Below are positions 21,771 through 58,500 of a stretch of DNA of 64,000 bases, one piece after another; position 1 is the stretch's first letter, and the number at the start of each line of letters is the position of its first letter. Source of the DNA: Lingula anatina (taxonomy: Eukaryota; Animalia; Brachiopoda); NCBI GenBank assembly GCA_051362555.1, contig CM120641.1:46506401-46570400 (forward strand), in the 5' to 3' direction. A program made the position numbers and the translations under genes. The notes beneath the pieces were generated by a model. The model saw only the letters and a program-made list of their open reading frames with translations. It did not search any database and had not been told where the DNA came from.

Positions 21771-22210
21771 ATATCTTAGGTTATCTGAAGTCTGCCTTAT
21801 CTGTAAAGCAGTGACGAATGTTTTATCATCCTCTCAAAATTATTTTAAAGAAACACAACATAAACAGATGTTTGTCCAGTTTGATTGACCGGTCATCGAC
21901 TGACAGATAGAAATTATATATATATATAACACCGGAGACAATCAATCAACAGCAGCAAACACGGGATAGTAATGTGGTGAGTAGTCAGCACAGTACATAC
22001 CTATACCCGCTTTCTAAAAGCAAAGATAACATCACAGATTTCTTAACTTGCACGTTCAGAGAGCTCGGCCAATCATTGCGCAGGCATGAGAAAAGACAAG
22101 GGCTCAGCCAGGGAAGCTATAATCCTGTATTAAAACGTAAATATCCAGGTATACGCATATAACCCGCAGTCTCATTTCACAAGAAGATCACACATCGCGC
22201 GAACGCCATA

Positions 22211-25200
22211 ATGTCTTCCATGGCCTTTCTCTTGATGCTGGCAGTCTACACGGTAACAAACGCAGACGCCGTGCTGGGAAAGTATAGGAATGAAACTGCT
22301 ACGAGGAGGATCCACTTTCCTAAACCAGGCCGCTGTAACGTGGGACTCTTGAGGAACCCTGCTTGGGATAAGGTTGGTACACCTCTTGTGGATTGCAAAG
22401 TCACAAATGAAGAAAACCCTGAACTATAAGCGTGATTGATGCGCGCAAGCTCCTTCATTTTTAACGATCCATATGCGCACGCTTATCCTCTGGCAGTCAG
22501 CGACTAGCGCAAAGTGCAAATGTGCAACTTTCATAGTTCTGTAGAAAGTCTAAAAGGTATACAACATTGGTCAAAAAGGTTGTCCCACCCCCAATTTAAT
22601 GTGCTTTCATTTATAAATGATCACATCACAGGAGTTAATTGCTATGAATAGTGATTTTCATTCCAGATACCATAACTAACATGATTAGTGGTACAGAAAA
22701 CACAAACTAGCGGTTAAGACATCCATATTTAATGCCATTTATTCACATTTATTTCATGTAGGACCTACCCCCCTCCGATGTTTCGAATCCGATGCTCCAC
22801 TGCCATTTCCATGGAGGTAAAGAAATACCCATTAAATCTAAATGACACCACCAAATGTCACCAAATTTACACACAATTAGCATTAGGGTATGCTCGTTAA
22901 AGGTTACGTGTCTATATAGCGTGTGTGGCTATCGCTCACTGTAATTTTCTCCTGTAGACGGCGCCACTGCCTTCAACAAGGGTAACAATTCTGTTTTATG
23001 GGATATTGCCCCATGTTTCCTAAAAAGCTTGGCGGAATTGGTCCAGACTATTTGGGGTTTAGTTCTCCTCTGGATTGCACACTTCAATTCATGCCACGGG
23101 TGCTCAGTAGGTTTATTATTGGGATTCAAAGATGATATCTCCAGCCTCAGAACATTGGTTTTCTGCAACAAATTACTCACAACATAAGAACTGTGTGCAA
23201 GTTTGCTGTCATGATGAAGCCTGGATCACCCCCGAATTCCCCTGTTGCAGATAAAATGAAGTATCAGTTTAAAATGTTAAGTTCAGTGACCCCAGAAATT
23301 CCAGAACTTGGTCAACCATCAATAGGAACAAGTTTGTTTTGCTGAAGAATCGAGGTATTTCTTGGATGCCTTCGATGGTTAAATTAGGGCCCGTAGACAT
23401 GTTGTAGAATGCTTTTTGGAAGGGTTGTGCAGGATAATATCGCCTGAGGTGGCAGGTCAGTCCACGTTTGGAGAGAATTCCAAGCCCATGGTTTAAGTGC
23501 ATTGTTCTTACCTGAAAAGAACGTTATTGGGACAATTCAAAGGAACGTTCTCAACAAATATCTCACTCCATTTGCAAGAGGTGACTTCAGGGATACTGCA
23601 GGCGTCATCGTGCAAATGCACTTGCTCACAACTCTCGTCTGCTGAGTGATTTGTTGCAGAAACTCAATGTTCAGAGGATGGAGCAACCACCTTTGAGCCT
23701 TGTCATTGACCTTACTAAACATCTGTGACATGAATTGAAGTGTGCAATGCAAAGGAGAACCAAACTCCTAATAATCTGGACCAACTCTCCCAAGCTCTTT
23801 AGGAAGAATGGGACAATATTCCATAAAACAGAATTGTTACCCTTGTTGAAGGCAGGCCGCGCCACCTACAGGAGGTAATTACTGTACTCGGTAAACACAA
23901 ACGCTACTAGACAAGTGACCTTTAACGAGCACACCCTAATGCTAAATGTGTGAAAATTTGGTGGCAATTGGTGGTGTCATTTCAATTTAATGGACATTTC
24001 TTTGCCTCTGTGAAAATCACAGTGAAATGCCTGATTTGAGGGGATACGGGTTATAAATGTGAATAAATGGTATTAGATATTGATATTCACCGCTAGTTTG
24101 TATTTTCTATATCACTAATCATGGTAGTTATGGTACATGGAATAAAAATCACTATTTATGACAATCTTCACCTGTGATGTGATCATTTATAAATAAAAGC
24201 ACATGATACTGAAGGTGGGACAACCCTTTTGACCAATGTTGTATATCTGAGAGGATTTCTGGCAAACCGCAGCAGGTTTGCCATTTTTATCCGGCGTTTA
24301 AAGAATTTAAACTACCTCCGAGCGTGTAAATTTAACCATCCGTTAAGAAGATTTACAATTGGTTAGTGCTAAACAACGTTTATGAAACCCGGTTAAACGT
24401 CGTTTAAGTTAAACGCTGGATTTAACCGGTGGTTAGTGCAAAACGCCCTTTATAATACTGGTCCCTGGATGTTATTAAAAATAACATTTAAAATTTCGTA
24501 GACTCTTTGATTTGAAAGCGTAGGCTGTAATTGATGGAAAATAGTATGTTTTAACTTTACAGTCAAGATTGAATTAATTCAGATTTGATGAGGCAGATTC
24601 AAGTATGGAAGTTAATTTAAAATGAAAATTAAGGAATGAAAGAATGAATTGAGAGATACAAGGCCAAGGAGAGAATACAGAGAGGCATATCGACAGACAC
24701 CACAGGTAGAACTAGAACCATACATTGTATATGAGTACCACTATTCCTGTGTTCCTTTCAGAATGCTGGTAAATTCACATGGTACATAGGGGTTTTGTTG
24801 TCTTTTGATTAATTGCTTACGCTATTTGCTGTTATACTGTGACTTTGTGTTTTCCAGGAAAATTGATTTCATAGAAACATACATATGCTGGTAGCTAAAT
24901 GCTTAAATCTTTTTCTTTTTTGTTTTATTGAAATTATCCTCACCCGAGAATAAAAATTAAAATTTGTTTTGATCCAAAAAGGAACAAACGTTACTGTGTC
25001 AAATGGAAAACTTTCAGCTGCGAAAGTGTTTTGCTCACTTTTAAGATTTGATCAGCACTGGTTTTGTTCTTTAATTTTTTCCTACAAGTATAACGTTGTA
25101 AAAAACATGGCAAACTTCTGTATAGAAAAAAATTGCGCGATTCTAGTTTGTTTTTCACTGAATATAACACAAAGATAAAATGCAACATGCAAATATATTA

Positions 25201-27077
25201 AATGAACAATTTTTTTATTCGTGGCGCAAAAATCGTGTCTGAAATATCAAACTATACACATGAAAACACTGTATATGTTGCAGTCGACAACAGAAAAAAA
25301 CCTATTACCTATTGCACAAAGTGCTTAAACAATAGTGATCTTTTTCTGGCATTTTTCCGGGGAACATGTGTTACGGACGTTTTAGCCATGACTCAACGCC
25401 CCATAGACTACATTTTTTAAAAATACATGTATATAGACTTCCTTACTCAGTTATCATTTACCATAACTGAATCAATACAATATTTATTGCAACACGATAC
25501 AAAATATGAAAATTCCCAAAAATCTCCCGAAAAATACGTGACCGTTTGGCTCTTTATATAATGATATAGACCATGCCGAAACTAACCTGTAGATGTAAAA
25601 AAATATAGACAACCGTGGTTTTTTGTTCTATAGACTTATATTTTTTAAAAAATTGAACATAACATCAACTTCATTCAATTTTATTTTTATAATTGCATTT
25701 ATATTGTAAATTTTCATCTTCCATGTAAACATACACGACAGCATGAGTAAAGCATTATAAGGCATTAATGTAATTTATAGCTGCAAGGAGAATGGTTGGA
25801 AATGGCCATCACCAGACTTTCTACACACGACGAAGAAAGGTACTTGCAGAACTACCATCAACGTTTGACCTATGTCGGTGAGGAAGGCACTGTGTATGTC
25901 GCTAATGAGACAGGAATGTAAGTGTGTTTAGAATTGCGACAGGTGTATCGTGGCTATTTCTGAAGTATTTTGATGTGAGATAACAGGCCCGTAGCCAGGG
26001 GGGTTCGGGGGGGGGGGTCGAAAGAACCCCCCTTTTTGCAGGTAAAAGGTCCCCTCTGGGTGAAATTTAATTAAGATACATGAAAGTTTCATTGTAAAAG
26101 GTCCACTTTTTCAGAAAAAGAACCCCCCCTTTTGAAATTTCTGGCTACGGGCCTGGATAATATTGAAATATATTGATGGGTGGGATTTGCTGGTTCCAAA
26201 GAATTTCTTAAAGCGTCCTTCTGTCAGTGTCAAAGAACAACTAGAGGTTCTGCTTAGAAGGTTGAGTTTGTCAGATGCGTTGAGACGTAATTGTTAACTG
26301 TGATAGATAGAGTTTGTTTGATAGAAAATGTGCGTTTCTTATTGTACTTCAGTTGGTCCAACGAATCAGGATGTCTGAAATGGGATTATACCTATAAAAC
26401 GACAAAACAACCGGGTGTACTGGCAGCCGTAAATGAGGGTGAGAAAAATTAAAAACAAACTAATGGATAAGGGATATTATTATCATTTTTGTTTCTTTCT
26501 TGGTCGTTTTTTAAGGCAAAGATTACATTGGCACAATTTAAAAATAATCTAGGGTTTTCATTTTTTGTTTCTTTTTGTCTTGACCAACTATCTAGCTAAA
26601 ATATTTTTCATGAATTCACATTATAGTTTTTGTATGCAATAACGATATATTTAACTATTTTTAAAACACTTTAAAACACTCTGTGCCTAGTTTCTTTGAC
26701 TAATACTCTGTATTACGTTTAGTACTTTCTCCTTTTTTCTCTTTTTAACTGTTTTTATTTTTATTTAAAAAAAAATATTATTATTATTTTTGCTGTCCTG
26801 TTCTTCATTTGACTGTCCTATCTGTTTGCAGACGGCAAAATCCTATTTGAAGGCTTTGTCGTTGACATTGCCTACGACTACTATATGTGCGCCAAGTACT
26901 TTGCCGACTTAGATGAGTACCAGTTTACTCTTTGGAGCAAAAAAATGTTCTTCAGCGCTTCTGAGGTGGTTAACATAGTTAACCGTATCTCATCGGATCC
27001 TTGTCTTAGAGAAAAAAGGTTTTATCCAGTTGTGCAAGACGGACGTAAGTAGATGAACAAATGGCGGGTAATTCTGT

Positions 27078-27111
<34 letters not shown>

Positions 27112-27458
27112 GTGTGCTGTGTGAATGAACATTTGCTGTGTGTATGTGGAGGGGGGAGGGGGCTGTGTGTACGCTTGTGCTTATGTGTGTACGTGTGCTT
27201 GTGCGTGTGTGTGTGTGTGTGTGTGTGAGTTGGGTGAGCGTGTGTTTGAGAGAAGGAGAGAGAGAGAGAGAGAGAGAGTTTTTTTTACTGAATGTGAACT
27301 GACTGGATTTTGACTTTTAAATATTTTCAAAAATTCCGGGGAAAGCTTTGTTAAAGACTATGGCTGCAAAGATGACATTGTATTTAACCTCTACAGTTCT
27401 CATCTTTCAGTATTAATTTTTTACTTCAGGGTGCGGCCTACCTCCAGGGCAAGAGTAA
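22211..27458 (+). CDS. Secreted lipocalin A (apolipoprotein D-like outlier, 208 aa). Exons 22211-22372, 25781-25917, 26353-26438, 26832-27044, 27430-27458
   Basis: Signal peptide [20 protein letters not shown]; [15 protein letters not shown]|LQGEWLEMA = SCR1 GxW; [10 protein letters not shown] ~ SCR2; FTLWSK ~ SCR3; C-terminal QDGRC; intron phases 0,2,1,1 as in lipocalin genes; 627 nt open frame; AATAAA at 27542. Confidence 0.82.
22562..24241. mobile_element. Decayed Tc1/mariner-type element with long inverted arms in lipocalin A intron 1
   Basis: TA-caacattggtcaaaaaggttgtcccacc ... ggtgggacaacccttttgaccaatgttg-TA; the arms stay alignable for several hundred bp; transposase C-terminal remnant (..[14 protein letters not shown]) on both strands; absent from lipocalin B. 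Confidence 0.85.
25984..26155. mobile_element. MITE with 5-bp target duplication (GATAA)
   Basis: TIR caggcccgtagccag / ctggctacgggcctg; gataa on both sides; the paralogous intron at ~40121 has a single gataa (empty site). Confidence 0.9.
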
Positions 27459-27719: not shown

Positions 27720-28711
27720 TCTCTCTCAACGACAACACATATAGTAGATATTATGCAATTTATAAAAGGCGAAAATGGCGATTAACAATACATTTGGCTT
27801 TTAACAGATTTAATGATACTGCAGGAAAAGAGAAACATTTTTGCCCTGTTTAAAGGGATAATAACTCTTTGTTTTGGCCAAAAAATGAATTTTCCTGGAG
27901 TAAACAACAATTTTCCCATACTTACCAATGGTTAATAAATCCATTTTTACATTCAAACTTAGTCCCTGGTTATTATAATTATTCTTTTTGGATAATAAGC
28001 AACCTTAGAATCGATTAGATGATGCTGGTAAGCTGTATTGGTACCTCGTCTTATGTAGGATATTCCATGATTTATAGACATCCACTGTATTCGAAAAATA
28101 CTTGATTTTTGACACGTTATCGCCCTGACAGCGAGTTTTAGAGTCTTTTTTTAATAATGGTATTATTCTACTCAAAAGTGTTACAAGGTCGAAGCAAAAG
28201 TCCTTGACTGAACTTCGATGATGGGGTAATGAATTTACTGTGATTATTGTCGTAGAAAACAGGATGTATTCCACTTTGCAATTAGTGATATTTTTCCTGT
28301 TGGAGTCAGAAGCCAGGGATTGGGCCAGGATCCGCCTGGATAATTGCATTAACTTGGGCCTTATAAATGGGTGCCTTTTATTCTTGCTATTTCCATTTTT
28401 AATTTTATTTTCAACGTTTGGTTTCCTGAATTTGGCATTTCCTAATTAGACGTGGTCATTTACCTAAATGTGCAAAATCATGGGACTAAAAATATGCACT
28501 GATAACCTTTCATATGAAGTGACTCCAATTAAACATGGTTTCAGACAATTAATAAAACACAAATCATGAGGACTTTAATAGCGGTCGTGTCCTCATGACA
28601 TTATTTGTCTTTTTATGAATGCAATTTTCATATTTTTGGACGGAAATTTGTTTTCCTGTTTCTCCCTTAAATCAACCCAGGTTAATTACCCGTGGTAATA
28701 TAAATTCTTGC

Positions 28712-28809
28712 TATAAATAAGAACCTGAAGACTAGTACATCTGCGACTGGTCGTCAGATTGAGAAATCTCCTGACAATATCGTTTCAGTGATCAGCTTTC
28801 ATAAAACAG
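28712..28809 (+). promoter_or_regulatory. TATA box and non-coding first exon of AbfB-like gene 1
   Basis: TATAAATA at 28712 followed ~90 nt later by the donor aacag|GTAGGC; same layout at ~43855-43971, ~50963-51074 and on the minus strand at ~48847-48732 and ~56416-56301. Confidence 0.7.
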
Positions 28810-29111
28810 GTAGGCTGTAGATTTGCGATCGTGTATTTCGATATGGATTCAAGCATATAAGGACAGATGTAGGCCTCGAAAGCAAAATGATCAGGCTATT
28901 TTTATGATAACTTTTTCAAAAATAGTATAGAAGTGTTTCGGAAATAACTTATATTAAAAGTATCATTTAAAGTTAACTTTATGAGGGCATTGAACGTCTC
29001 ATCAAGACGATAAGTAAAGCAGTAAACTATAAAAAATAATGATCTCGAATGCATTGTTATAGTTTGGACAAAAAACACCAGTATTTATTGTTCTTGAAGG
29101 AATAACTGAAG

Positions 29112-31387
29112 ATGTTTTCCCTGTGTATTGTCACCGTTGCTGTGTTGGTCTCTCCCAGCCTTGTCCACGCACAGGAGACAGGCACCGGTGAGTGTTTGTG
29201 TTTATTGAAATTTTCATTCTTTTTTCGGAAGATGATATCTATTGCAACAGCCAACACTTCTTACATTAAAATCGACTGTAACAACTGTATTTTAGGTTGA
29301 AATATAACTTTTATCTTATAAAAGTACAGTTGCTACATACTAAAACTAACTGAGACCGTCCAACTCTCAAAATTACCCAAAATTAACAATGAAGTACACT
29401 AAAATTTAGATGATTTCATTATTTTAAGAACCTAGTATGATGTTTAAATATATAGATTTCAAAAGAAAACCCGACGTATGGTTTGTGTTTACGGGCACGT
29501 TTTAAATAATCGGTTAGGTATGACATTTCCGTAGAACATGTAGCCTGTTTTTTATGCTTTTCAAGTATCCGATAACACAAAATTACATTAATTGAATTTA
29601 AAAACATCTCTGCTTTGTCAGTCTTAAAAGGAAAGAAATAATTTAATCAATGCTGGAAAATATGAAGTAAGAATCTAGATGTAAAGCGGCATCATTTTCA
29701 GATTCAAATGTTGAATATTGATTATGATATATGAAAATAAAACAGATAAAAGATAATGATTGGCCTTTATTTCCCCACTGATATTAAAAAGCTTTGACGT
29801 TCAAACATATTCAAGCTCAAAAATAAAATACATCTTGATAATTATTTATTTACTTTATTCAATTGCAGTTGTGCGTCTTCGTTCCCAAAACTATCCCGAA
29901 TATACTTGGGGACTCCATCCTAACGCCGACGCATACATCAATCAAGGCTTCAGCGGAAATGTTTTCCATATTGTCCCCGGGTTAACCGGACAACCAGGTA
30001 CCGTGTCCTTCAACTCCGTGGACTACCCGTGCTCCTATCTCCGTCACTATAACTTCTTCGTGAACCTCGAAAGTTCAAAGAGCCCTAGGAATGCTCACAT
30101 CTTCGACAAGGACGCCACGTTCTACCCTCGACCTGACAAATTTCTTCAAGGATACACGGCCTACGAGTCGGTGAACTACCCTGGGCACTTCATCCGCCAT
30201 GCTGGCTACAGACTGCAGATACGTAGAGACGATGGTTCTCTCCTGTTTAAGAAAGATGCCAGTTTCAAAGTTGAGAGAATTGGTACGTAGACAGTTAGTT
30301 ATTTACAACTGAACATGTAACGAATTTTGTTGATCTTCTGTGTAGTTGATATGGTGCGCCCAATCGTTTTGTCTGTGAAACAAGATGGTATAGATGAAAG
30401 GAGATATCCATGGGCGTAACTAGGCATACGCACGGATGCACTGTGCGTACAATTTTTTGGCCAACCATGATATTATTTAATATAAATTTAGTGTATTTTT
30501 CACGGAATATAAAAGAAAATCCCCTGCTTATTAAAGTCACCTGTATGTACAAATCCTGTGTATAAATTGTATAGGCACAATTGTTCTGACCCCCCCTCCC
30601 CCCCTGTCTTGCATTCTTTTATTGAACTGAGGTAAACAATGCCTGTAACCTTAACAAGTCCTATCTTAATCGTCCATCTAACTGGAACTTCCTTTACCTC
30701 TTAATTGGAGGGTTCAGTGGCCCTCAACTCTCCTGTAGCCTCTTTCTTGAGAATATCGAACGCATTCTTGGTGGCGATATCTATCTCGGGTAAAAATCTG
30801 CCTGAGTGTTATTTTCAAAGAGCAGCTCCCGCAACCCTGGGGGCACTAGATAAAATCTGGACACCAGGCTTAATAAGGAGCTAGAGAAACAAAGGAAGAA
30901 TTTTTCCCGCAAAACTTCAAAGAATTTTGACACGGACTTGATCCAGCTTATAACCCCTCCAAACTAACAGGGTGACATGGGCAATTTTTACAAACAAATA
31001 ATTAAACTGTAAGGTGAATGAAACCGTATGTTAGTTCAACTCAGAGGTGGATCCAGGATTATTCGAAGGGGGTTCCACATATGCGAAGCTAGCCTCCTTT
31101 TAAATAAATATACCGTTCTGGGTAATAAGAATATTGAAACTTTTTTAATTGCGAGAATATTTCTGACTAAATGATGATTTTATTATTAATGGAAAATAAA
31201 GCTGCGATGTGTGGTACATATGCTGTGATTACGCTGTCCTTCATCTGTTGCGTTAGTCTACATTTTGCTGGGAATTTTAAAAATCTGTGCGTACAATTTT
31301 TAAAGGTCTGGTTACGCCCCTGATATCTAAAATATCATAATTTGTTGTCAAAATTCATTCGAAAGAGCATTTATAATTTGAGACCAC

Positions 31388-31428
<41 letters not shown>

Positions 31429-31586
31429 GTGTGTGTGTTTGCCATTGCGTTGCATGCATATATATATATATATATACACATATATACAAGGTATATATAT
31501 TCCGTACGTGTATATATATATATCCGGAAGAAATTGCAAAAATAATTCTTATAATTTCAGTGTTGCTGGAAAGATGTGGCAGTTAA
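29112..31586 (+). CDS. Secreted stand-alone AbfB/CBM42-like beta-trefoil protein, copy 1 (171 aa). Exons 29112-29187, 29869-30282, 31561-31586
   Basis: Signal peptide MFSLCIVTVAVLVSPSLVHA; repeats VSFNSVDYPCSYLRH...FDKDATF and AYESVNYPGHFIRH...FKKDASF match the arabinose-binding AbfB domain pattern; a 26-nt last exon (xLLERCxx*) is conserved across copies. Confidence 0.88.
30409..31322. mobile_element. Non-autonomous DNA transposon, 5-bp TSD (ATATC), in the last intron of AbfB copy 1
   Basis: TIR catgggcgtaactag / ctggttacgcccctg; atatc on both flanks; empty site in copies 2 (~45558) and 4 (~52672). Confidence 0.85.
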
Positions 31587-33271
31587 ATTCCAAATCGCCA
31601 TATGCCGAGGGCAGAAACGTTTGATACACGTCCAAATAAAATGCCATATTCGGTGAAATTATTTATGGAATAAAATAGTGTATTAAACATTTTATTGAAG
31701 AATTATTTTTGGATACTTTTTTATTCAATAAACTTACGATCTTTTAAAACTGTTGACATGGAGCAGTGATCAGTATAGGGCTTGACACGGTTCTTGTGTA
31801 AAAGATACATTTAAACATTCTAAATTCACTTTTCCTTGTAACATAGCAAAACACACGTGAATTCACACTCTATTAGCACGTGACGTCACTTTCGCCAGAC
31901 CGTCGTTTCTTATATCAGCTGAGACAACACTACATCAAGCCATGCAAACAAACAATGAATGTTTGACATAGGCGCGATCTTTAAAAAACAAATATGGTTT
32001 GTTTTACATGCTATTTTTGAGCAAGTGAATCTTATAGTGTATTAAGATGTAAACCTACATACTGTATATCAAAAAAAATTGTGGAAACTAAAATATAGTC
32101 CGTCTGAACAGGAATTCTATTAGATTATTGTTATCCAACAGAATAAGATTTTTGTATTGTTCTATCCCCATTCATATTATGAGGAACCATATCAATACTA
32201 AAACTTCTTAAACCAAATTATCCTCATTCTTTAAACAGACGATCAAAAGGAATATAATAACATGAAAATTTGGCCCATTTCACGGTGTACTAGCTGTGGT
32301 AGGTAATATTCGATGTGTTAGATGGGTCTCATCTTCATTGCACTGGCCTGCCAGCATATTTATTTTTAATTATTTCACAAAATCTTTAAAAAGTATGCAA
32401 ATGGACATTAACGAATAACCGAGGCATCCTATTTCACCATACAACCATCAAGGTGGTTTTGGATATGCAAATAATAGTTTTTACACACAAGTCGTCTAAT
32501 TCGGAAAGAAGTGCATTAAATTAATTCAAATTAATATACATGTATATCTTTACCTTACATACTTATCCCCCAATATTATAATCAATACAAAACGTTTTTT
32601 TAATGATATATCATGCTTCTCAAAATTTGCGTGGAATCAGATATGGCAGCTGTAAGTTACTCTTTACCAGGATGGCAGATTATATAGGGAAAAAGGAGAA
32701 AAGCCAGAGATAGTAAAATGACCGTCTTTTTATCTAAAGACATCTCTGTGAATATCCTGTGAAAAGTCAATCTATGGCCCTAGTAGAGAGTAGCTGTAAG
32801 TATCTTTTCGAAAATCGAGCAGACATTCTGACATGTATGTGTTTTTTTCACACCTGACAGGATGGAGAATACTTTATGTGTGTGTGGGGAACTAGCTCTT
32901 GTAAAGCACTTGTCTAAAACTCCTGTAACATTTACTTGAATATAAGAAAATTGGCCTTTCATAAAACATGTTGCCATAGCAACTAACTTAACATGCATGG
33001 TTAACCGTCACTCTGTCCATCACAGAAAAGGGGGGTGGAAGCCTGTCAAGGTTTAACATTAAACGTCTTCTGCTCCTCTGCGCAACATAAAGTTAAGTAT
33101 TTATATTTAAAGCGTTAAGAATAAGACAAACACCATTTCCTTAGTTTCGGCATTTATTATTAAGTTACTAGTATTTTAAATTATTCAAACATAAAAAGTA
33201 TTAATTGTCCTCAAATGTCTCCATATTTCACTGAATGCGGCATTTTATTTGGACGTATATCAAACGTCTTT

Positions 33272-33715
33272 CACCCCATTTCCATAGATTTTTAGATCGA
33301 TCTATCCCTGTGGGGAGTCTCACTAGATTACTGTCAGCTTGGCCGGCTTAAGCGTCTGTCCCGCCTACTAAAAGCTGTAAGGTGGTAATTAACTATGGTG
33401 CCCGCTCGGCTGACTGCAATTTAGCGTGAACCCCCAGGGAGTTAGGTCGATCTAAATCTTTATCTTTAGATCGATCTAAATCTCTGGGAAAGCACCCTTT
33501 GACTGCATTCCCACAGATTTAGATCGATCCATCAGGATCGACCTAACTTCCTGGGGGTTCACGCTAAATTGCTATCAGCCGAGCATGCACGGAAGTTAAT
33601 TACCTCCTTACAGCTTTCAGTAGGCGGGACAGACATTTAAGCCGGCTAAGCTGACAGTAATCTAGTGAGACTCCCCACGGGGATAGATCGATCTAAAATC
33701 TGTGGGAATGCAGTC
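33272..33715. mobile_element. Two ~215-bp MITE copies in inverted orientation (about 440-bp imperfect palindrome)
   Basis: Second copy has TIR gactgcattcccacagattt / aaatctgtgggaatgcagtc (33501-33715); first copy is its diverged reverse complement; empty site at ~54505-54515; related fragment at ~50003-50175. Confidence 0.8.
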
Positions 33716-33732: not shown

Positions 33733-33880
33733 TTATGTGTGGCATCTTTCCAGTAAATCTGAAAACATAAAAATTCTTGTTGTAATTTTTTTCTGTAAAC
33801 ACCAAGCAAAAACAAGGAGTAAAACAGAGAGATAGAGAAGAGAGAGAGAGAGAGAGAGAGAGAAGGCCACGGTGGGCAAA
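33733..33880 (-). pseudogene. Orphan last exon (DLLERCHT*) and partial intron of a deleted minus-strand AbfB-like gene
   Basis: ttttcag|atttactggaaagatgccacacataa at 33758-33733 is nearly identical to 47146-47121; homology ends at ~33880 and the domain exon is absent. Confidence 0.85.
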
Positions 33881-34604
33881 AAAATAAAAAAAATAAAAAA
33901 AAAACAATGAAAAAATTACTACGTGTTCCAGATTTATAATCTTTATTTAAAAAGTGTAATAAGGTGATTTTATGATAATATTAGTTCTCCTCTTCTCCCC
34001 CTATTCCTCATTATCAGATAAATATTATTACTGCTGTAACAGTCATCTTCTATATTGTCCTCTTAGGAAACATTCTAAAACAGAAATAGCTACACAGCCA
34101 AAGACAGTTGTGTCACTGTGTGTGTGCGTGTGCGTGTGCGTGTGCGTGTGCGAGCGTGTGTGTTAGCTATGGAACCCCAGGAGGGCCAAATGAAAAAAAA
34201 TTATCCCAGGATATGTGGTCGACTTGATTTCAGTGGATCAAGAAGAATACAATGCAGTATTTGAAATGCGAAGTTAGGGTTTTGCGTTACCAGTCTCCAA
34301 ATACAAATATAATTATTTATATGTAAATAACACGGGAGACAATCAACAGCAGAAGCAGAGGTGGTGGATGTGATGTGTAGTCAGCTTAGGACATACCCGC
34401 TTTCTAAAAGCAAAAGCAAAGATAACATTGCAGATTTCATTAACTTGCACGTTCAGAGAGCTCGGCCAATCATTGCGCAGGCATAAGAAATGACAAGGGC
34501 TCAGCCAGGGAAGCTATAATCCTGTATAAAAACGTAAATATCCAGGTACACGCATATAACTCGCAGTCTAATTTCAGAAGAAGATCACACATCGCGCGAA
34601 CGCC

Positions 34605-40600: not shown

Positions 40601-41154
40601 TGTTACTTAGTTTTTGTATGCAATAACGATTTTTTAAACTATTCTAAAAACACTTTAAATTTCTGTGCCTAGTTTCTTCGATTAATACGCTGTATTACGT
40701 TTAGTACTATCTTCTGTCTTTACTTTTATTTTTTTAAAATTATTTTTATTATTATTTTTTTTTTGCTGTCCTGTTCTTCATTTGACTGTCCTATCTGTTT
40801 GCAGACGGCAAAATCCTATTTGAAGGCTTTGTCGTTGACATTGCCTACGACTACTATATGTGCGCCAAGTACTTTGCCGACTTAGATGAGTACCGGTTTA
40901 CCCTTTGGAGCAAAAAAATGTTCTTCAGCGCTTCTGAGGTGGTCAACATAGTTAACCGTATCTCATCGGATCCTTGTCTTAGAGAAAAAAAGTTTTATCC
41001 AGTTGTGCAAGACGGACGTAAGTAGATGAACAAATGGCGGGTAATTCCGTGTGTGCGTGCGTGCGTGCGTGTGTGTGAATGTGCATTTGTTGTGTGTGTG
41101 TGTGTGTGTGTGTACGTGTGTGTGTGTGTATATGTGTGTGTGTGTTGGAGGGTG

Positions 41155-41213
<59 letters not shown>

Positions 41214-43190: not shown

Positions 43191-44278
43191 AAAAAAAGAC
43201 CAGTAATAAATTGCTATGTGTTTTTGTCTTTCTTTTTTATTATTTTGGATTATTAATAATATGTTTTGGTATCTTGTCTTATATAGGATATTAATGATTC
43301 ATAGACATCGTCTGTATTCGAAAATACTTGATTCTTGATTTTAGCACCCTGACAGCGAATTTTAGTGTCTGTTTTTTTTTTAAATAATGGTACTATTCTT
43401 CTCAATGGTATTACAAGGTTTTAGCAAATGTACCTGGCTGAACTTCGATGATGTGGTTATTGAATTAACTGTAATTACTATCATAGAAAACAGGGTGCAT
43501 TCCACTTAGCAATAAGTAATACTTTTCCTGTTGGAGTTAGTAACCAGGGACTGGTCCAGGATCAGCCAGGGTGATTGGATGATCCAGGGCCTTAAAAACG
43601 GGTGCCTTTTTTTCATGCTATTTCCATTTTTAATTTCATTGTCAACGTTTGGTGTCCTTTTTCCCCTGAATTCGGTATTTCCTGATAAGTTCATTTATAT
43701 CTGAAATGATTCCAATTAAAGATGGTTTTAGACAAACATAACACTATTTGACCTTTTATCAATGCTATTTCCATATTTTTGTACGTACATTTGTTTTCCT
43801 GCTTCTCCTTTAAATCATCCTACGTTTATTACTCATGGTTATATAAATTTTTGCTATAAATAAGAACTTGAAAACTAGCTTTACGTAGTCAGTTCATCCG
43901 CGACTGGTCGTCAGATTGACAAGGCAAGACTTCTGACAATATTGTTTCAGTGATCAGCTTTCATAAAACAGGTAGGCTGTAGGTTTGTGATCGTGTATTT
44001 CTCTGTGGATTCAAGTAGACTAGGACAGATGTGGGGCTCTAAAGTAAAATAATCATTCTATTTTTTTATCATAACTTTTTTCAAAAATATTTTTGAAGTG
44101 CTTCGGATATGATTTATATTGACACAAGTATTATTCAAAATTAATTCTATGCGGGCATTGAACGTCTAATCAAGATGATAAGTAAAACAATAAAACATAA
44201 AATATAATGATTTCGAATGCGTTGTTATAGCTTGAAAAAAAAAAACGGTTTTTATCGTTCTTGTAGAAATAACTGAAG

Positions 44279-45719
44279 ATGTTTTCCCTGTGTATTGCCG
44301 CCGTTGCTGTGTTGGTCTCTCTCAACCTTGTCCACGCTCAGGAGACGGGCACCTGTGAGTATTTGTAATTATTGAAATTTTCATTCTTTTTTCGGAAGAT
44401 GATATCTCTTGCTACAGTCCACACTTCTGCCATTCAAATCGGCTGTATCAATTGTATTTTAGGTTGAAATACAACTTTTATCTTATAAAAGTACAGTTGC
44501 TACATATTAAAACCAACTGAGACCGTCCAAATATCAAAATTACCCAAAATTAACAATGAAGTACACTAAAATTTAGATGATATCATTATTTTAAGAATCT
44601 AGTATGATGTTTAAATATATAGATTTCAAAAGAAAACCCGACGTATGGTTTGTGCTTCGGGAACAACGTTTAAAATGATCTGTTAGATGACATTTTCGTA
44701 GAACATGTAACATGTATCGTATTCAAAAACACAAAATTACGTTAACTGAATTTAAAAACATCTCTGCTATGTTAGTCTTAAAAGGAAAGAAATTATTTAA
44801 TCAATGCTGGAAAATATGAAGTAAGTATCTGGTTGTAAAGCGGCATAATTTTCAGATTCAAATGTTGAATATTGATTATGATATATGAAAATAAAACAGA
44901 TAAAAGATAATGATTGGCCATTATTTCCCCACTGATATTTAAAAGCTTTGACATTCAAACATATTCAAGGTAAAAAATAAACTAAATCTTGATAATTATT
45001 TATTTACTTTATTTTATTGCAGTTGTGCGTCTTCGATCCCAAAATGAACCCGATTATACTTGGGGACTCCATTCTAACGGCGACGCATACATCATGAAAG
45101 GATTCAGTGGAAATTTTTTCCGTATTGTCCCAGGGTTAAGCGGACAACCAGACACCGTGTCCTTCAACTCAGTGGATTACCCGAGCTCCTATCTCCGTCA
45201 CCACGGTTTCTTGGTGAGCCTCGAAAGTTCAAAGAACCCAAGGAATGGTCATATGTTCGTGAAGGACGCCACGTTCTACCCTCGACCTGACAAATTTCTT
45301 CAAGGATACACGGCCTACGAGTCTGTGAACTACCCTGGGCACTTCATCCGCCATGCTGGCCACAGACTGGAGATACGTAGATACGACGGCTCTCTCCTGT
45401 TTAAGAGGGATGCCAGTTTCAAAGTTGAGCCGGTACGTAGACAGTTTGTTATTTACAACTCAACTTGTGACGAATTTTGTTGATCTTCTGTGTAGTTGAT
45501 ATGGTGCGCCCAATCAGCGTTTTGTCTGTGAAACAAGATGGTATAGATGAAAGGAGAGATCTAAAATACCATAATTTGTTGTCAAAATTCATACGAAAGA
45601 GCATTTATAATTTAAGACCGCGTTGCCATTGCGTTGCATGCGTATACAGTATTTACTGGAAGAAATTGCTTATATAATTCTTTATATTTCAGAATTGCTG
45701 GAAAAATGTGACAGTTTAA
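44279..45719 (+). CDS. AbfB/CBM42-like protein copy 2 (~170 aa, most divergent). Exons 44279-44354, 45023-45432, 45693-45719
   Basis: Signal peptide plus intact domain; domain exon is 4 nt shorter and last exon 1 nt longer, giving the tail EP|NCWKNVTV*. Confidence 0.8.
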
Positions 45720-47120: not shown

Positions 47121-48455
47121 TTAAGTGTGGCATCTTTCCAGTAAATCTGAAAACAAAAAAATACTTTTCGTAATTTTTTCTGTAAGCACTAAGCAAAAAC
47201 AAAGGTAAAAGCAGAGAGAGAAAGAGAAAAAATGCCACGGTGGGCAATAAAAATTTATACACACAAAAGATTATCAACTACACAGAAGACCAACAAAATT
47301 CGTTTACATGTTCAGTTGTAAATAACTGTCTACGTACCAGTTGGCTCAGCTTTGAAACTGGCATCCCTCTTAAACAGGAGAGAGCCGTCGTCTCTACGTA
47401 TCTGCAGTCTGTAGCCAGCATGGCGGATGAAGTGCCCAGGGTAGTTCACCGACTCGTAGGCCGTGTATCCTTGAAGAAATTTGTCAGGTCGAGGGTAGAA
47501 CGTGGCGTCCTTGTCGAAGATGTGAGGATTCCTTGGGATCTTTGAACTTTCGAGGTTCACGAAGAAGCTATAGTGCCGGAGATAGGAGCACGGGTAGTCC
47601 ACGGAGTTGAAGGACACGGTACCTGGTTGTCCGGTTAACCCGGGGACAATATGGAAAACATTTCCGCTGAAGCCTTGCTTGATGTATGCGTCGCCGTTAG
47701 GATGGAGTCCCCAAGTATAATCGGGGTAATTTTGGGATCGAAGACGTACAACTGCAATTTAATAAAGCACACACGACATAATATTTTATTTTTCCAGCTT
47801 AAGAACTTTTATATCTGTTTGAATATAAGTGGGGAAATAAAGGTACTACTGTTTTATTTTGATCATTTAAGTTAAGAAGTAAAATGTTGCAGCCTGCAAT
47901 ATCAAACAGCATGGATCCACAAAATGTGTAAGTGAAGCCATTTACAGAAAAACTCTTACTTCATATATATCAGGCACTATCCGATATTTTGTTTAAAATT
48001 TCAATGAAATTCGTGTAAATGACTACCTTTAACAGATAATTATTTATTTATTTATTTAGCGTCTTCAATATTTGATGAACATAAAAATCATGCTTCTATG
48101 TGCCAGGTAACTTATGTCCACAAAAATTTTAACGAACTGCCACTGTACTGGAGCTACAAACCGAAATTATATCTATATCACATCTATACAATAAGTTATC
48201 CTGTTCCAAAAGATAAAAAACAAACACTGTAGTCATATGAATCCCATCTTCTTAATTATAGGTCGATAATTTGAGATCTGGTTTTGATTTTTGGCAACTG
48301 TGCTGATATAAGCATTGCCTAACAGAAATAATCTGACTGAAAATTTAATTAAAATAGATGTTGTTTTTTTACAATTATAAATACTTACCGCTCTGTTGGG
48401 CGGGAACGAGAGGGAAGAATAAAACAGCAACGGCGGCAAAACACATGGAAAACAT
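47121..48455 (-). CDS. AbfB/CBM42-like protein copy 3 (168 aa). Exons 48455-48389, 47751-47338, 47146-47121
   Basis: MFSMCFAAVAVLFFPLVPAQQS signal exon, 414-nt domain exon, DLLERCHT* exon. Confidence 0.88.
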
Positions 48456-50189
48456 CTTCAGTTATTCTTTTGGGAAACATAAAAATCGATTTTCAGATGA
48501 AAAATTGTTTAATAATAAAAATGAACATGAATTCCTGTCTTTTTTTAACTACACACACAATATTTCTATCTAAATTATTCTAAAGGCCAAAACATTAAAA
48601 AGATAATAATTATAATAATAATAATATTATTATTAATGTAAATAGATTTTCTTAGTTTCTACATCTTAACAAACCTGTTCGAGTTCGGGACATTAAAAAA
48701 AAATTACACGTCTTAGAAACTGAAGGCCTACCTGTTAACGTATTTTGGTCAGTAAGATATCACAAATGTTTCAAAAGTCTTGGTTTTTGTCGACCAGACG
48801 ATGAAAAGTTGACTGCGCCAAACCAAATTTTCAAGTTCTTATTTATAGGTCTACCAAACTCGTAGGCTATACAAAATGTTCATAATTAAGTTGTGCGGCC
48901 CACGCCGTGCCGCTTTTAAGTACTTGTCATGTCACGATCATCATACGAAATAGGCTTTGTCCATCCCAGTGCGGTTTTTCTTTCCTCAAACTGCAAGCCA
49001 CATCCGCTTTGCATCCTTTCGTCATATCTGGAGTCTGAAAACAAAAACATTGCTTTGTTAAAACACTTTAAACGCCCAAAACCAACATAGAGGTGGATTT
49101 CACATGCTGAAGTGTCCAAAAATAAAATTGAATGAATTCAAAGTTGTATTCAATTTTTTTAAACAGGGGAATAATAATTTATCTAAAGCTTATTTTACTG
49201 TCGGTAGGGTGTATTTTCCTTTTTTAAGTATTCAGTGACAAGCAAACTAAAGTCGTCAAAAAACAATCAACTGCTCTATACAGAAGATTATAATTTTTAC
49301 AATTATTATAATTTTTATACTTGTAAGAGATATCCAAAAACAAAACCAGTGATGACTGAATTTTCAAAGTGAGTAGAACGTTTCACAGATGGCCGTTTTG
49401 TACTTGTGACAGTAACTTATGTTTCTTCTTGGGGATAGACGATGAATTATTTTTTATTTCTCTTCATGCTTCCAGGACAGCAAAAATTTGATACAAACTT
49501 CTTCGTTTGGGACCCTAAAATAATCAAACATAGTTTGCAATCTATGTCTTTGTCAATTGCACCTCTATATTGGGTTTGGTGCCATAGGCCTACATACATC
49601 TTTTACGTATCTTTTATGCATGGAAAACATTCCCCCCATTGATCACGATTAATGAGAATTGTGCTCATGATAATGCCAATTCCACATATTGTCTACGTAA
49701 ATCTTTGGTTTTTAAATGAGAATTTTTTATTAATGGTGATAAAACCACCGTCCGAATTAAAAATACCATGTAGGTCAATCGGGACAAGTTACTTGAACGA
49801 ATAAAACGACCTAAATACTCACTCTTATTCAAAAATAACAATAATCATAGTGATGATGTTGTCACTGGCTGCCATTGGTGATGACAAAATCAATGAGCAG
49901 CACCCTGTAATCAGAACAAGGACAAGATCAGGAACCAGGACAAGACCGCCTCAATAGCCTAGGCAGGCAGATGAATCTTACCTTAGACTGGGTTCCGATG
50001 CCTAGATCGATCCATCTGGATCGGTCTAACTCCCTGGGGAGTCTCACTAATCTGCTATCAACTTAACCGGCTTGATTGTCTGTCACGCCTACCGAATCAT
50101 CTAGGGGGTAAAAATAATTACTCCCTAACAGCTTTACTAGGCGTGCCAGACATTAAGCTGGTTAAGTTTGTAGCAAATATTGTAATAAT

Positions 50190-50378: not shown

Positions 50379-51379
50379 ATTCCTGACAGCGACTTTAAGA
50401 GTGTCTGTTTTTTTTTAATTTTTTTAATTTTAATTTTTTTTTTTTTTTTGGTACTATTCTACTCAATGGTGTTACAAGGTTTAAGCAAACTTCGATGATG
50501 TGATAAATAAATTTACTGTGATTACTGTCATAGAAAACAGGATGCGTTCCACTTAGCAGTAAGTAATATTTTTCCTGTTGGAGTTAGTAGCCAGGGATTG
50601 GGCCAGGATCCGCCTGGATAATTGCATTATCTTGGTTGCCTTTAATTCATGCTAATTCCATTCTTAATTTTATTTTCAACGTTTGGTTTCCTGAATTCGG
50701 TATTTCCTAATTAGACGTGGTCATTTACCTAAATGTGCAAAATTATGGGACTACAAATATCCATCTGAAGTGATTCCAATTAAAGATGGTTTCAGACAAT
50801 TAATAAAACACAAATCATGAGGATTTTAATAGCGGTCGTGTCCTCATGACATTATTTGTCTTTTTATCAATGCAATTTCCGTATTTTTGTACGGAAATTT
50901 GTTTTCCTGTTTCTCCCTTAAATCAACCTAGGTTAATTACCCGTGGTAATATAAATTCTCGCTATAAATAAGAACTTGAAAACTTGCCATACGAGGTGAG
51001 TTCATCCGCGACTGGTCGTCAGATTGAGAAGACTCCTGACAATATTGTTTCAGTGATCAGCTTTCATAAAACAGGTAGGCTGTAAATTTGTGATCGTGTA
51101 TTTCTCTGTGGATTCAAGTAGATAAGGACAGATCTAGGCCTCGAAAGTAAAATGATCAGGCTATTTTTATGAGATAACTTTTTTTAAAAATAGTTTAGAA
51201 GTGTTTCGGAAATAATTTATATTAAAAGTATCATTCAAAGTTAACTTTATGAGGACATTGAACGTCTCATCAAGATGATAAGTAAAGCAGTAAACTATAA
51301 AAAATAATGATCTCAAATGCATTGTTATAGTTTGGACAAAAAACACCAGTATATATTGTTCTTGAAGGAATAACTGAAG

Positions 51380-52733
51380 ATGTTTTCCCTGTGTATTGCC
51401 ACCGTTGCTGTGTTGGTCTCTCCCAGCCTTGTCCACGCCCAGGAGACAGGCACCGGTGAGTGTTTGTGTTTATTGAAATTTTCATTCTTTTTTCGGAAGA
51501 TGATACCTCTTGCTACAGTCCACACTTCTGTCATAAAAATCCACCACAAAAACTGTATTTTAGGTTGAAATATAACTTTTATCTTATAAAAGTACAGTTG
51601 CTACATACTAAAACCAACTGAGACTGTCCAACTCTCAAAATTACCCAAAATTAACAATGAAGTACACTAAAATTTAGATGATTTCATTATTTTAAGAACC
51701 TAGTATGATGTTTAATTATATAGATTTCAAAAGAAAACCCGATGTATGGCTTGTGTTTACGGGTACGTTTTAAATAATCGGTTAGTGAGATTTTCGTAGA
51801 ACATCTAGCCTGTTTTTTATGCTTATCAAGTATCCGAAAACACAAAATAACATTTATTGAATTTAAAAACATCTCTGCTACGTTCGTCTCAAAAGGAAAG
51901 AAATAATTTAATCAATGCTGGAAAATATGAAGCATGAATCTGTTTGTTAAGCGGCATAATTTTCAGATTTAAATGTTGAATATTGATTATGATATATGAA
52001 AATAAAACACATAAAAGAAAATGATTGGCCTTTATTTCCCCACTGATATAAAAAAGCTTGACATTCAAACATATTCAAGCTCAAAAATAAACTAGATCTT
52101 GATAATTATTTATTTACTTTATTTAATTGCAGTTGTGCGTCTTCGTTCCCAAAATTATCCCGATTATACTTGGGGACTCCATCCTAACGGCGACGCATAC
52201 ATCAAGCAAGGCTTCAGTGGAAATGTTTTCCATATTGTCCCCGGGTTAACAGGACAACCAGGTACAGTGTCTTTCAACTCCGTGGACTACCCGTGCTCCT
52301 ATCTCCGACACTATGGCTTCTTCGTGAATCTCGAAAGTTCAAAGAACCCAAGGAACGCTCACATTTTCGACAAGGACGCCACGTTCTACCCTCGACCTGA
52401 CAAATTTCTTCAAGGATACACGGCCTACGAGTCGGTGAACTACCCTGGGCACTTCATCCGCCATGCTGGCTACAGACTGCAGATACGTAGAGACGACGGC
52501 TCTCTCCTGTTTAAGAAAGATGCCAGTTTCAAAGCTGAGCCAATTGGTACGTAGACAGTTAGTTATTTACAACTGAACATGGAACGAATTTTGTTGATCT
52601 TCTGCGAAGTTGATGTGGTGCGCCCAATCAGCGTTTTGTCTGTGAAACAAGATGGTATAGATGAAAGGAGAGATCTAAAATACCGTAATTTGTTGTCAAA
52701 ATTCATGCGAAAGGGCATTTTTAATTAGAGACC

Positions 52734-52776
<43 letters not shown>

Positions 52777-52880
52777 GTGTGTGTGTGTTTGCTATTGTTT
52801 TACATGCATATATTTTCGGGAAGAAATTACAAAAAATAATTCTTATAATTTCAGAATTGCTGGAAAGATGTGGCAGTTAA
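51380..52880 (+). CDS. AbfB/CBM42-like protein copy 4 (171 aa). Exons 51380-51455, 52133-52546, 52855-52880
   Basis: 76+414+26 nt exons, intact, ending ELLERCGS*. Confidence 0.88.
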
Positions 52881-57567: not shown

Positions 57568-57710
57568 GGGGGGCGTCTCGATAGTCCGAAGGTTCATTGG
57601 TCCGAAGGTTCATTGGTCCGAAAAACGGTAACATTTTCATCGGTTTTTTAATCAAGGGTTCATTGGTCCGAAGATTCTGTAGTGAACTTTCGGACCAATG
57701 AACCTTCGGT
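57568..57710. repeat. 17-bp ggttcattggtccgaa(g) motif in direct and inverted copies (likely a DNA-transposon end)
   Basis: Copies at ~57591, ~57608 and ~57657; reverse complement at ~57689-57709. Confidence 0.65.
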
Positions 57711-58139
57711 GTTTTTACCTCCTTTCTACGACCACAGCGATTTATAATCGCTCTTACACATGGCTCTGTCGATGGGAAAACTGGTTGAATTGACAGTGTG
57801 TGAGTTGAAGAGATGAAGAAATGTGCCATTAATTAACAAGAGACATATATGCGAGTATCTCGTAAAAAATCAATCTGTTGCACTGGTAGAGGGTATACCA
57901 TTTACAGTTTTTGTGCCGTTTGTTTAAAATGTTTTCACAAATATTATTCCAATGCTTTACGGTGATTTTTTGTGGTTTTAAAAATGTATTAAATAGCACT
58001 TAAACTAACATTACTGAAAACGTTTTAAACGTTATAATGTATCCAGAAAACGCTAATAATTATGGAAATTTCATCTTCATGTTTTCGTAAGTTTTTTTAA
58101 TAACGTTATTTTATGTGGTATATAGGGTATTTAAAATAT

Positions 58140-58500
58140 ATTATTCTGTGTACTTGACATGTTGCGCCCAATCAACGCTTTGCTTGAGAAACAAATGGTA
58201 TAAATGGAATGAGACATTTAAAACATTGTTTGTCATCAAAATTCATGCGATAGGACATTTACTTGCTTGATTGGACATTTACTGCGTCTCGCTCTCAGGT
58301 GCGCATGCGCGCGTGTTTATGCATGCATATACTTACAGGAAGAAATTACCAAAAACATTATAATAGTATTTTCAGATTCGCTGGAAATATGTCGCAGTTA
58401 AATTCCTACTCGACTTTTACCGAAAGCAGAGGCGTTTGATACACGTCCAAAAAAATTACATATTCAGTGAAATTATTTATGGAATAAAATTTGTATATGA
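58140..58500 (+). pseudogene. Orphan last intron, last exon (DSLEICRS*, 58376-58401) and 3' UTR of a deleted AbfB-like gene
   Basis: Paralogous to 50190-50378 and to the 3' ends of the plus-strand copies, including AATAAA at ~58483. Confidence 0.75.

What the first reader, a model, noticed from the sequence alone, without database searches (positions are those of the whole stretch)
21930..58500. Co-duplicated cluster of secreted lipocalins and stand-alone AbfB/CBM42 lectin-like proteins
Seen: a module [lipocalin(+), AbfB(+), AbfB(-)] amplified two to three times, giving 2 intact lipocalins, 5 intact AbfB-only genes and 3 orphan exons; all intact genes have signal peptides and TATA-like boxes. 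Known: lipocalins bind small hydrophobic ligands and CBM42 binds arabinofuranose. Inference: an actively turning-over secretory locus (mucus, gut, gland or immune secretion) pairing a hydrophobic-ligand carrier with a glycan-recognition protein. This is the best candidate for an undescribed system in the window.
Basis: partly seen in the sequence, partly recalled or inferred. Interest (0 to 1): 0.8.

Follow-up and report, generated by a model that had tools for sequence, protein, structure and literature searches.

The report
Lingula lectin cluster with passenger lipocalins
In a lamp shell (Lingula), five genes for small, predicted-secreted proteins with a sugar-binding fold sit in a real, recently duplicated cluster beside two lipocalin genes; they are likely mucus lectins of the mantle, and the lipocalins were probably copied along as neighbours rather than as partners.

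Summary
The genes are real. The window matches Lingula anatina. It holds 2 five-exon lipocalin genes (fold supported), 5 genes made of a signal peptide plus one AbfB/CBM42 domain, and 3 orphan last exons. AbfB splicing is seen in RNA reads.

The copies are not haplotypes: units are 82-89% alike, and RefSeq has counterparts of 4 AbfB genes and 1 lipocalin.

The 'module' is weaker than claimed. The full triplet occurs once, the third unit has no lipocalin, the promoters share nothing, and AbfB reads vary about 100-fold between two runs where lipocalin reads vary 3-fold. Both peak in the same run, so co-expression is not excluded.

All five AbfB proteins keep the His and Asp of the beta and gamma arabinose pockets, lack the alpha pocket and have no hydrolase domain. 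A Lingula AbfB-type transcript is published as mantle-enriched, and Hydra secretes AbfB proteins in its glue. Best reading: two-site mucus lectins expanding by tandem duplication and gene conversion, with a lipocalin carried along once. No binding was tested. A modestly interesting uncharacterised family, not a demonstrated new system.

The parts
22124..27458 (+). LCN1, divergent lipocalin, 208 aa; TATA-like box 22124; coding exons 22211-22372, 25781-25917, 26353-26438, 26832-27044, 27430-27458
   Evidence: 202/208 identical to RefSeq P0028 of the same length; lipocalin fold
22555..24248 (.). Insertion with long inverted arms in LCN1 intron 1, absent from LCN2; transposon-like (inferred)
   Evidence: 726-bp inverted match at 77%; no Pfam hit at E<0.1 for 3 frames tested
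28711..31586 (+). A1: signal peptide + single AbfB/CBM42 domain, 171 aa; TATA 28711, non-coding exon ending 28809, coding exons 29112-29187, 29869-30282, 31561-31586
   Evidence: family-level splice joints 28807>29098 (52 reads) and exon 2>31560 (31 reads) in run X7
33270..33712 (.). Small inverted-repeat element in the 3' UTR of the orphan minus-strand exon
   Evidence: 15 reads of X7 skip 33268-33713; heavy multi-locus read pile
33733..33758 (-). Orphan third exon of a minus-type AbfB gene whose exons 1-2 are missing
   Evidence: 19 X7 reads join exon 2 to this exon type on the opposite strand, most likely from the intact minus paralogs
34521..41384 (+). LCN2, 208 aa, 185/208 identical to LCN1; coding exons 34605-34766, 39923-40059, 40319-40404, 40805-41017, 41356-41384
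   Evidence: (dS 0.08, dN 0.05)
35626..38745 (.). Different insertion with about 640-bp inverted arms in LCN2 intron 1; transposon-like (inferred)
   Evidence: 76% inverted match
43854..45719 (+). A2: most divergent AbfB copy; coding exons 44279-44354, 45023-45432, third exon from 45693; 4-nt deletion shifts the tail; internal Cys lost
   Evidence: 163/170 identical to RefSeq P0002, which lacks the deletion
47121..48848 (-). A3: minus-type AbfB, 168 aa; coding exons 48455-48389, 47751-47338, 47146-47121
   Evidence: 164/168 to RefSeq P0030
50189..50396 (+). Relic of a plus-type AbfB gene: intron-2 remnant and orphan third exon 50353-50378
50962..52880 (+). A4: plus-type AbfB, 171 aa; coding exons 51380-51455, 52133-52546, 52855-52880
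   Evidence: 163/171 to RefSeq P0001
54530..56417 (-). A5: minus-type AbfB, 168 aa; coding exons 55834-55768, 55169-54756, 54555-54530
   Evidence: 167/168 to RefSeq P0029
58144..58490 (+). Second relic of the same plus-type gene: orphan third exon 58376-58401

Best explanation
This is a real tandem cluster of five Lingula genes for small, predicted-secreted single-domain AbfB/CBM42 proteins that likely act as two-site lectins in mantle and lophophore mucus, beside a lipocalin gene that was probably copied along once as a neighbour. Shown: gene structures, AbfB splicing, the domain, the conserved beta and gamma pocket residues, no catalytic domain, the lipocalin fold, the duplication layout. 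Inferred mechanism: each roughly 150-aa mature protein folds as a beta-trefoil, closed in four of five copies by a disulfide between the beta-subdomain Cys and the Cys of the short last exon. It would bind terminal furanoside-type sugars in two pockets and so cross-link or trap glycans on microbes, algae or mucins. Inferred history: an inverted AbfB pair plus a third copy (now a relic) was duplicated without the lipocalin; one larger duplication took the lipocalin along; gene conversion keeps exon 2 alike between opposite-strand copies. My odds: lectin-like rather than enzymatic 0.75; furanoside ligand 0.4; linkage without functional pairing 0.7.
For: Pockets: the alignment to AtAbf43C CBM42 (residues counted by hand on the printed alignment) places its arabinose ligands H70/D89 and H118/D136 (PMC12493170, passages) on P0001 H85/D107 and H136/D155. 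These motifs are present in 5 of 5 window genes, and the alpha repeat lacks them. Pfam finds only AbfB on the full-length RefSeq counterparts P0001 and P0002. Tissue: Luo 2015 Supplementary Table 19 lists gene 27258 (best hit ABFB_EMENI) at FPKM mantle 280, lophophore 49, gut 1, digestive caecum 1, pedicle 0, larva 0. It occurs once in that supplement, so not in its shell-protein tables. Precedent: two AbfB-domain transcripts are in the Hydra basal-disc secretion table (PMC5080974, passages). Layout: unit 3 and all three relics are AbfB only. No lipocalin/AbfB promoter similarity beyond one 10-mer at E 0.48. Exon depth per Gb, X7 versus X4: AbfB 73 v 0.8, lipocalin 6.7 v 2.2. Conversion: exon 2 is 95-96% identical between A3(-) and A1/A4(+) while intron 1 is 56%; dS A3-A4 0.12 is below dS A3-A5 0.23.
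Against: No binding data. The gamma-pocket Asn (N120) is replaced by Gly, and the beta-pocket Tyr position varies (F, Y), so the ligand may differ. It is unknown whether gene 27258 is one of these five copies. Both families rank the same across the 4 runs laid (X7 highest; X1 and X2 near zero), which fits co-expression. AbfB depth sums at least 5 paralogs and lipocalin depth 2, so the per-gene gap in X7 is only about 4-fold. Tissues of the runs are not given, and most reads are 90-95% alike, so no read can be assigned to a copy. The contig test of older paralogs is weak: it also fails to link LCN1's counterpart to the AbfB counterparts, which are linked in this window.
Confidence: 0.55

Rival explanations
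1. Lipocalin and AbfB form a co-regulated secreted pair: the lectin tethers the lipocalin, or its cargo, to glycans in mucus or on microbes, and the linkage is selected.
For: In 2 of 2 units with a lipocalin, an AbfB promoter follows within 1.3 and 2.5 kb on the same strand. Both families are highest in run X7 and near zero in X1 and X2. Both lipocalins have an odd number of Cys (5), and A2 has one unpaired mature Cys.
Against: Unit 3 and three relics expanded without a lipocalin. No shared promoter motif. About 100-fold versus 3-fold change between X4 and X7. 0 of 4 RefSeq lipocalins share a contig length with any of 9 RefSeq AbfB proteins (a weak test). A1, the neighbour of LCN1, has both Cys paired.
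Confidence: 0.15
2. The AbfB proteins are structural cross-linkers of the animal's own mucus, cuticle or burrow-lining glue, binding host glycans such as sulfated glycosaminoglycans rather than foreign furanosides.
For: Hydra AbfB proteins are in the glue secretion. Hydra PPOD beta-trefoils agglutinate cells and are inhibited by heparin and chondroitin sulfate (PMC3531485, passages). The mantle table also lists mucin, FCGBP, zonadhesin and a carbohydrate sulfotransferase. The mature proteins are basic, pI 8.6-9.2.
Against: The His/Asp pocket residues used for arabinofuranose are invariant across all 24 aligned sequences or nearly so, which suggests a kept neutral-sugar site. PPOD is a different trefoil family.
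Confidence: 0.2
3. The AbfB proteins are accessory modules for digesting algal or plant-like polysaccharides, working in trans with glycoside hydrolases.
For: In microbes CBM42 is normally attached to GH43 or GH54 arabinofuranosidases.
Against: The published AbfB-type transcript is at FPKM 1 in gut and digestive caecum. No hydrolase domain occurs in these genes, and no hydrolase gene was seen in the window.
Confidence: 0.06
4. The repeated units are mis-assembled haplotypes of fewer genes.
For: The published heterozygosity is high, 1.6% (PMC4595640). No clear 1:1 RefSeq counterpart was retrieved for A1 (best 154/171) or LCN2 (183/208). No DNA read depth could be examined.
Against: Units are 82-89% identical over 4.6-7.2 kb of aligned DNA, far beyond allelic distance. 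Each unit has its own insertions. A separate assembly has 1:1 counterparts of A2, A3, A4, A5 and LCN1.
Confidence: 0.03

Closest known systems
CBM42 / AbfB domain (PF05270) of microbial arabinofuranosidases: AtAbf43C (PDB 9NXH/9NXI), SaAraf43A (3AKF-H), Aspergillus AbfB (1WD3)
   Same: Same Pfam domain; PDB sequence hits at E 2e-18 to 9e-7; beta and gamma His/Asp kept; alpha pocket non-functional as in AtAbf43C.
   Different: Stand-alone single domain with a signal peptide and no GH43 or GH54 module; intron-containing animal genes; an extra Cys pair; gamma Asn replaced; ligand untested.
Hydra basal-disc AbfB-domain proteins (PMC5080974)
   Same: Animal AbfB-domain proteins found in a surface secretion.
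   Different: 310 and 588 aa (AbfB is the only Pfam family listed; I did not see their sequences) against 168-171 aa here; the authors read them as glycosidases; no lipocalin link in the passages read.
Hydra PPOD beta-trefoil lectins (PMC3531485)
   Same: Small secreted, lineage-expanded beta-trefoil proteins of an epithelial surface; a functional model for what these may do.
   Different: Different trefoil family (FRG1/fascin-like, Trp-based sites), two domains, binds sulfated glycosaminoglycans, reported as horizontally acquired.
Otogelin AbfB domain (PMC4948705)
   Same: AbfB domain in an animal mucin-like extracellular protein.
   Different: Embedded in a very large VWD-C8-TIL protein; not retrieved by my searches, whose limit was 2000 aa.
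Lipocalins (alpha-1-microglobulin, NGAL/siderocalin, RBP4, ApoD)
   Same: Profile hits AMBP E 8.7e-7 and NGAL E 1e-5; predicted eight-strand barrel plus helix; VIA Z 12.8 with 37 top rows all lipocalin-fold; GxW motif.
   Different: 9-19% identity to any solved lipocalin in the top rows; below Pfam cut-off; its 3 clear relatives among 1.84 billion representatives are all Lingula; ligand unknown.

Membership tests
CBM42 / AbfB (PF05270) | Profile match above curated cut-off | tested here: met
   88.6-96.8 bits against cut-off 22.8 in 5 of 5
CBM42 / AbfB (PF05270) | His + Asp arabinofuranose pocket in beta and gamma subdomains | tested here: met
   the gamma Asn is Gly here
CBM42 / AbfB (PF05270) | Third (alpha) pocket (not obligatory; lost in some members) | tested here: not met
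   only two RH and two DA[TS]F motifs per protein; same state as AtAbf43C
CBM42 / AbfB (PF05270) | Beta-trefoil fold | not tested
CBM42 / AbfB (PF05270) | Binds arabinofuranose | not testable with these tools
   needs a binding assay
GH43/GH54 alpha-L-arabinofuranosidase | Catalytic glycoside hydrolase domain | tested here: not met
   168-171 aa gene models; only AbfB found on full-length counterparts
Lipocalin | Eight-stranded beta-barrel with C-terminal helix | tested here: met
   model pLDDT 60, pTM 0.59; Foldseek E 3.7e-5; VIA Z 12.8, rmsd 3.4, 156 aligned; run on RefSeq counterpart P0028
Lipocalin | Pfam PF00061 gathering score | tested here: not met
   14.3 bits against 23; a 4-sequence profile does reach solved lipocalins at E 8.7e-7
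Lipocalin | Conserved motifs SCR1 (GxW), SCR2 (TDY), SCR3 (R/K) | tested here: inconclusive
   SCR1 present; SCR2 degenerate in P0028 but canonical in paralog P0035; SCR3 basic residue present (motif definitions recalled)
Lipocalin | Binds a small hydrophobic ligand | not testable with these tools
   needs a ligand assay
Functional lipocalin-lectin gene module | Both genes kept together in every duplicated unit | tested here: not met
   2 of 3 units have a lipocalin; 1 of 3 has the full triplet
Functional lipocalin-lectin gene module | Co-expression | tested here: inconclusive
   same rank order, different amplitude in 4 runs of unknown tissue
Functional lipocalin-lectin gene module | Conserved linkage in relatives | tested here: inconclusive
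   only RefSeq contig lengths were available (0 of 4 shared), and that test misses the link seen in this window; no other brachiopod genome could be searched

The most novel reading that the evidence does not exclude
Brachiopods secrete a two-part mucus defence kit: CBM42 proteins act as animal pattern-recognition lectins for microbial and algal furanose sugars, and the linked Lingula-specific lipocalin rides with them (possibly disulfide-linked through the unpaired cysteines) to sequester siderophores or lipids at the trapped cell. The lectin half alone, a furanose-reading animal CBM42 family, has about 0.3 probability and would be worth about 0.55.
Probability: 0.08. Interest if true: 0.7.

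Novelty: new member of a known kind. Interest (0 to 1): 0.33.

Why it matters
If the pockets still bind furanosides, this family is a small, easily expressed candidate for an animal lectin that reads sugars animals generally do not make (recalled knowledge), and it gives a direct test of what AbfB domains do in animals, which the papers I read leave open. The locus is also a clean example of gene conversion between inverted copies. The lipocalin-lectin 'system' would matter more, but nothing found here requires it.

Tried and rejected
Own genome: none held, so no genome-wide synteny or copy count.
Run search: no RNA holder listed; only 9 same-label raw-read runs. No lipocalin splice joint was among the 15 joints shown (74 not shown), so the lipocalin exon structure rests on GT-AG sites and on the RefSeq model.
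Complex prediction: no verdict.
Single-sequence fold of the lipocalin failed (pLDDT 36.8). The phmmer hits of P0028 to designed beta-propellers were rejected as short repeat matches. The Atlas did not complete for the lipocalin; for AbfB its top clusters were bacterial stand-alone AbfB at 0.90-0.91, which is no sign of transfer.
Recent bacterial transfer: not supported. In a quick tree of 104 domains (25 of 129 dropped as redundant; the careful search did not finish) the 7 Lingula rows form one clade (99) inside a 43-row group (81) with two RH motifs and no named bacterium, but 34 of those rows are unnamed.
Metagenome scan: 3 short loci of 34-45% identity, not studied.
Earlier findings: none.
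Literature: Lingula+AbfB and Lingula+arabinofuranosidase each gave 1 irrelevant paper; 'AbfB domain' 11 papers, 10 listed, all microbial or structural by title; CBM42/His416 (34); a six-term mucus search; arabinofuranosidase B+invertebrate 1 (56); PPOD; Lingula+lipocalin 12, none on this by title; Lingula mucus; CBM42+metazoa 1, fungal. No description of this cluster was found; subscription papers and most supplements are not searched, and the Hydra supplements were not opened.
Positive selection: not indicated; pairwise dN/dS 0.11-0.57 for AbfB exon 2 and 0.65 for the lipocalins.


Full report
Source and setting. The window is AT-rich animal DNA without gaps. The five best relatives of the AbfB exon and the only relative of the lipocalin exon are 'uncharacterized' Lingula anatina RefSeq proteins. 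The window is a different haplotype or assembly: no retrieved protein is identical to a window gene. The cluster lies between two DEG/ENaC channel genes with a RING fragment, and a C2H2 zinc-finger gene. No whole genome was held.

Genes. Two lipocalin genes have five coding exons each, GT-AG introns and 208 codons, and are 185/208 identical. Five genes carry one AbfB/CBM42 domain. Each has a TATA-type box, a non-coding first exon, a signal-peptide exon, a domain exon and a short last exon with a Cys. RefSeq models end the same way. In run X7, reads join the non-coding exon to the signal exon (52 reads), a minus-type leader to the domain exon (24), the domain exon to the plus-type last exon (31) and to the minus-type last exon (19). 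These are family-level counts at 88% likeness. The three orphan exons are last exons without their genes. A2 has a 4-nt deletion relative to RefSeq P0002 that shifts its tail, and it has lost the internal Cys.

Are the copies real? Aligned DNA between units is 85%, 82% and 89% identical over 7.2, 6.3 and 4.6 kb, against a published heterozygosity of 1.6%. RefSeq has 1:1 counterparts of A2, A3, A4, A5 (163/170, 164/168, 163/171, 167/168) and LCN1 (202/208). None was retrieved for A1 or LCN2, and one member each of those two clusters was not readable. Haplotype mis-assembly is unlikely; read depth was not tested.

Is it a module? Unit 1 is LCN1, A1 and the last exon of a minus gene. Unit 2 is LCN2, A2, A3 and a relic. 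Unit 3 is A4, A5 and the same relic, with no lipocalin. So the lipocalin was duplicated once, and AbfB genes have been gained and lost on their own. Lipocalin and AbfB promoters share only a chance 10-mer, while plus and minus AbfB promoters share the 19-bp TATA segment. Exon depth per Gb in runs X1, X2, X4, X7 was 0.03, 0.08, 2.2, 6.7 for the lipocalin and 0.6, 0, 0.8, 73 for AbfB (scaled from bin means). Both peak in X7, which fits shared expression, but AbfB moves about 100-fold between X4 and X7 and the lipocalin 3-fold. These are four of nine listed runs, of unknown tissue, with very few reads outside X7, so they cannot settle it. In RefSeq, 0 of 4 lipocalins of this family share a contig length with any of 9 AbfB proteins. 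That test also separates LCN1's counterpart from the AbfB counterparts, so it is weak.

What the AbfB proteins are. They align to solved CBM42 domains. The arabinose-binding His and Asp of the beta and gamma pockets of AtAbf43C (PMC12493170, passages) map to residues kept in all five genes; the alpha pocket is gone and the gamma Asn is Gly. There is no hydrolase domain. Two Cys could form one disulfide in four of five copies (inference). In a quick tree the Lingula domains are one clade inside a larger two-pocket group of mostly unnamed AbfB proteins, several of them AbfB-only repeats, apart from all 15 named bacterial rows. A recent bacterial transfer is not indicated; the origin is unresolved.

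Where they probably act. Luo et al. 2015 (PMC4595640; passages and part 7 of 24 of the supplement read, the rest searched by term) list a transcript with best hit ABFB_EMENI among mantle-high genes: mantle 280, lophophore 49, gut 1, digestive caecum 1, pedicle 0, larva 0. It sits among mucin, FCGBP and zonadhesin-like genes and does not recur in the shell-protein tables. Whether it is one of these five copies is unknown. Hydra secretes two AbfB-domain proteins in its basal-disc glue (PMC5080974, passages), otogelin carries the domain (PMC4948705, passage), and Hydra PPOD trefoils are agglutinins (PMC3531485, passages). Secreted animal AbfB proteins are therefore known as a kind, but I found no test of their binding.

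The lipocalin. Pfam gives only E 0.048. A profile of four Lingula paralogs reaches alpha-1-microglobulin at E 8.7e-7 and NGAL at 1e-5. The model (pLDDT 60) matches lipocalins in both fold searches. Of 6 hits at E<=0.001 among 1.84 billion representatives, one is the query, three are Lingula paralogs and two are short repeat-like matches. It is a divergent, apparently lineage-restricted lipocalin of unknown ligand.

Gene conversion. Between opposite-strand copies, identity is 23-58% per 60-bp window in the last 300 bp of intron 1, 82-100% per window across most of exon 2, still 85-90% for about 65 bp beyond it, then under 30%. A3's exon 2 is closer to A1 and A4 (dS 0.10, 0.12) than to its sister A5 (0.23). 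All 8 differences between A4 and its RefSeq counterpart are residues of A2 (3) or A5 (5); a chimeric RefSeq model could also give this last pattern.

Verdict. The most likely reading is an expanding family of secreted two-site CBM42 lectins of mantle mucus with a neighbouring lipocalin copied once. Function and ligand are inferred. A functional pair stays possible at about 0.15. No description of the cluster was found in ten literature searches (listed under Tried and rejected). New member of a known kind; interest 0.33.

Noticed in passing
window 29869-30350, 47270-47751, 52133-52614, 54687-55169: Exon 2 plus about 65 bp of intron 2 is homogenised between opposite-strand AbfB copies while intron 1 is at background identity: likely gene conversion across inverted repeats.
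   Followed up: yes
window 10228-18483 (-): Tandem pair of DEG/ENaC (ASC, PF00858) channel genes, 70-85% alike in exons.
   Followed up: partly
window 1-6100 (+): 3' exons of what reads as a cytoplasmic dynein heavy chain (label recalled from the translation, not tested); exon-sized internal repeat at 6037-6252.
   Followed up: no
window 19363-19713 (-): RING finger exon of TRIM type; the rest of the gene was not traced.
   Followed up: partly
window 60898-62643 (+) and 59656-59995 (-): Long C2H2 zinc-finger array, with an inverted partial copy of its C-terminal end (74% over 289 bp) just upstream.
   Followed up: no
window 24974-25093 and 39449-39587 versus 49315-49454: Lipocalin intron 1 shares a 120-140 bp segment (70-74%, inverted) with the region upstream of A3; unexplained, either a small repeat or a trace of older rearrangement.
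   Followed up: no
window 21053-21750 and 42800-43213: Decayed frames that read like an integrase fragment and a LINE reverse-transcriptase tail (labels recalled; the two frames scanned had no Pfam hit).
   Followed up: partly
P0004, P0032 (other Lingula loci): Lingula AbfB relatives with an added Cys-rich N-terminal region, 218 and 308 aa.
   Followed up: no
P0038-P0047, P0006 (unnamed records): AbfB-only repeat proteins with 2 to about 6-7 domains; most fall in the two-pocket group with the Lingula domains (P0045 does not). Organisms unknown.
   Followed up: partly
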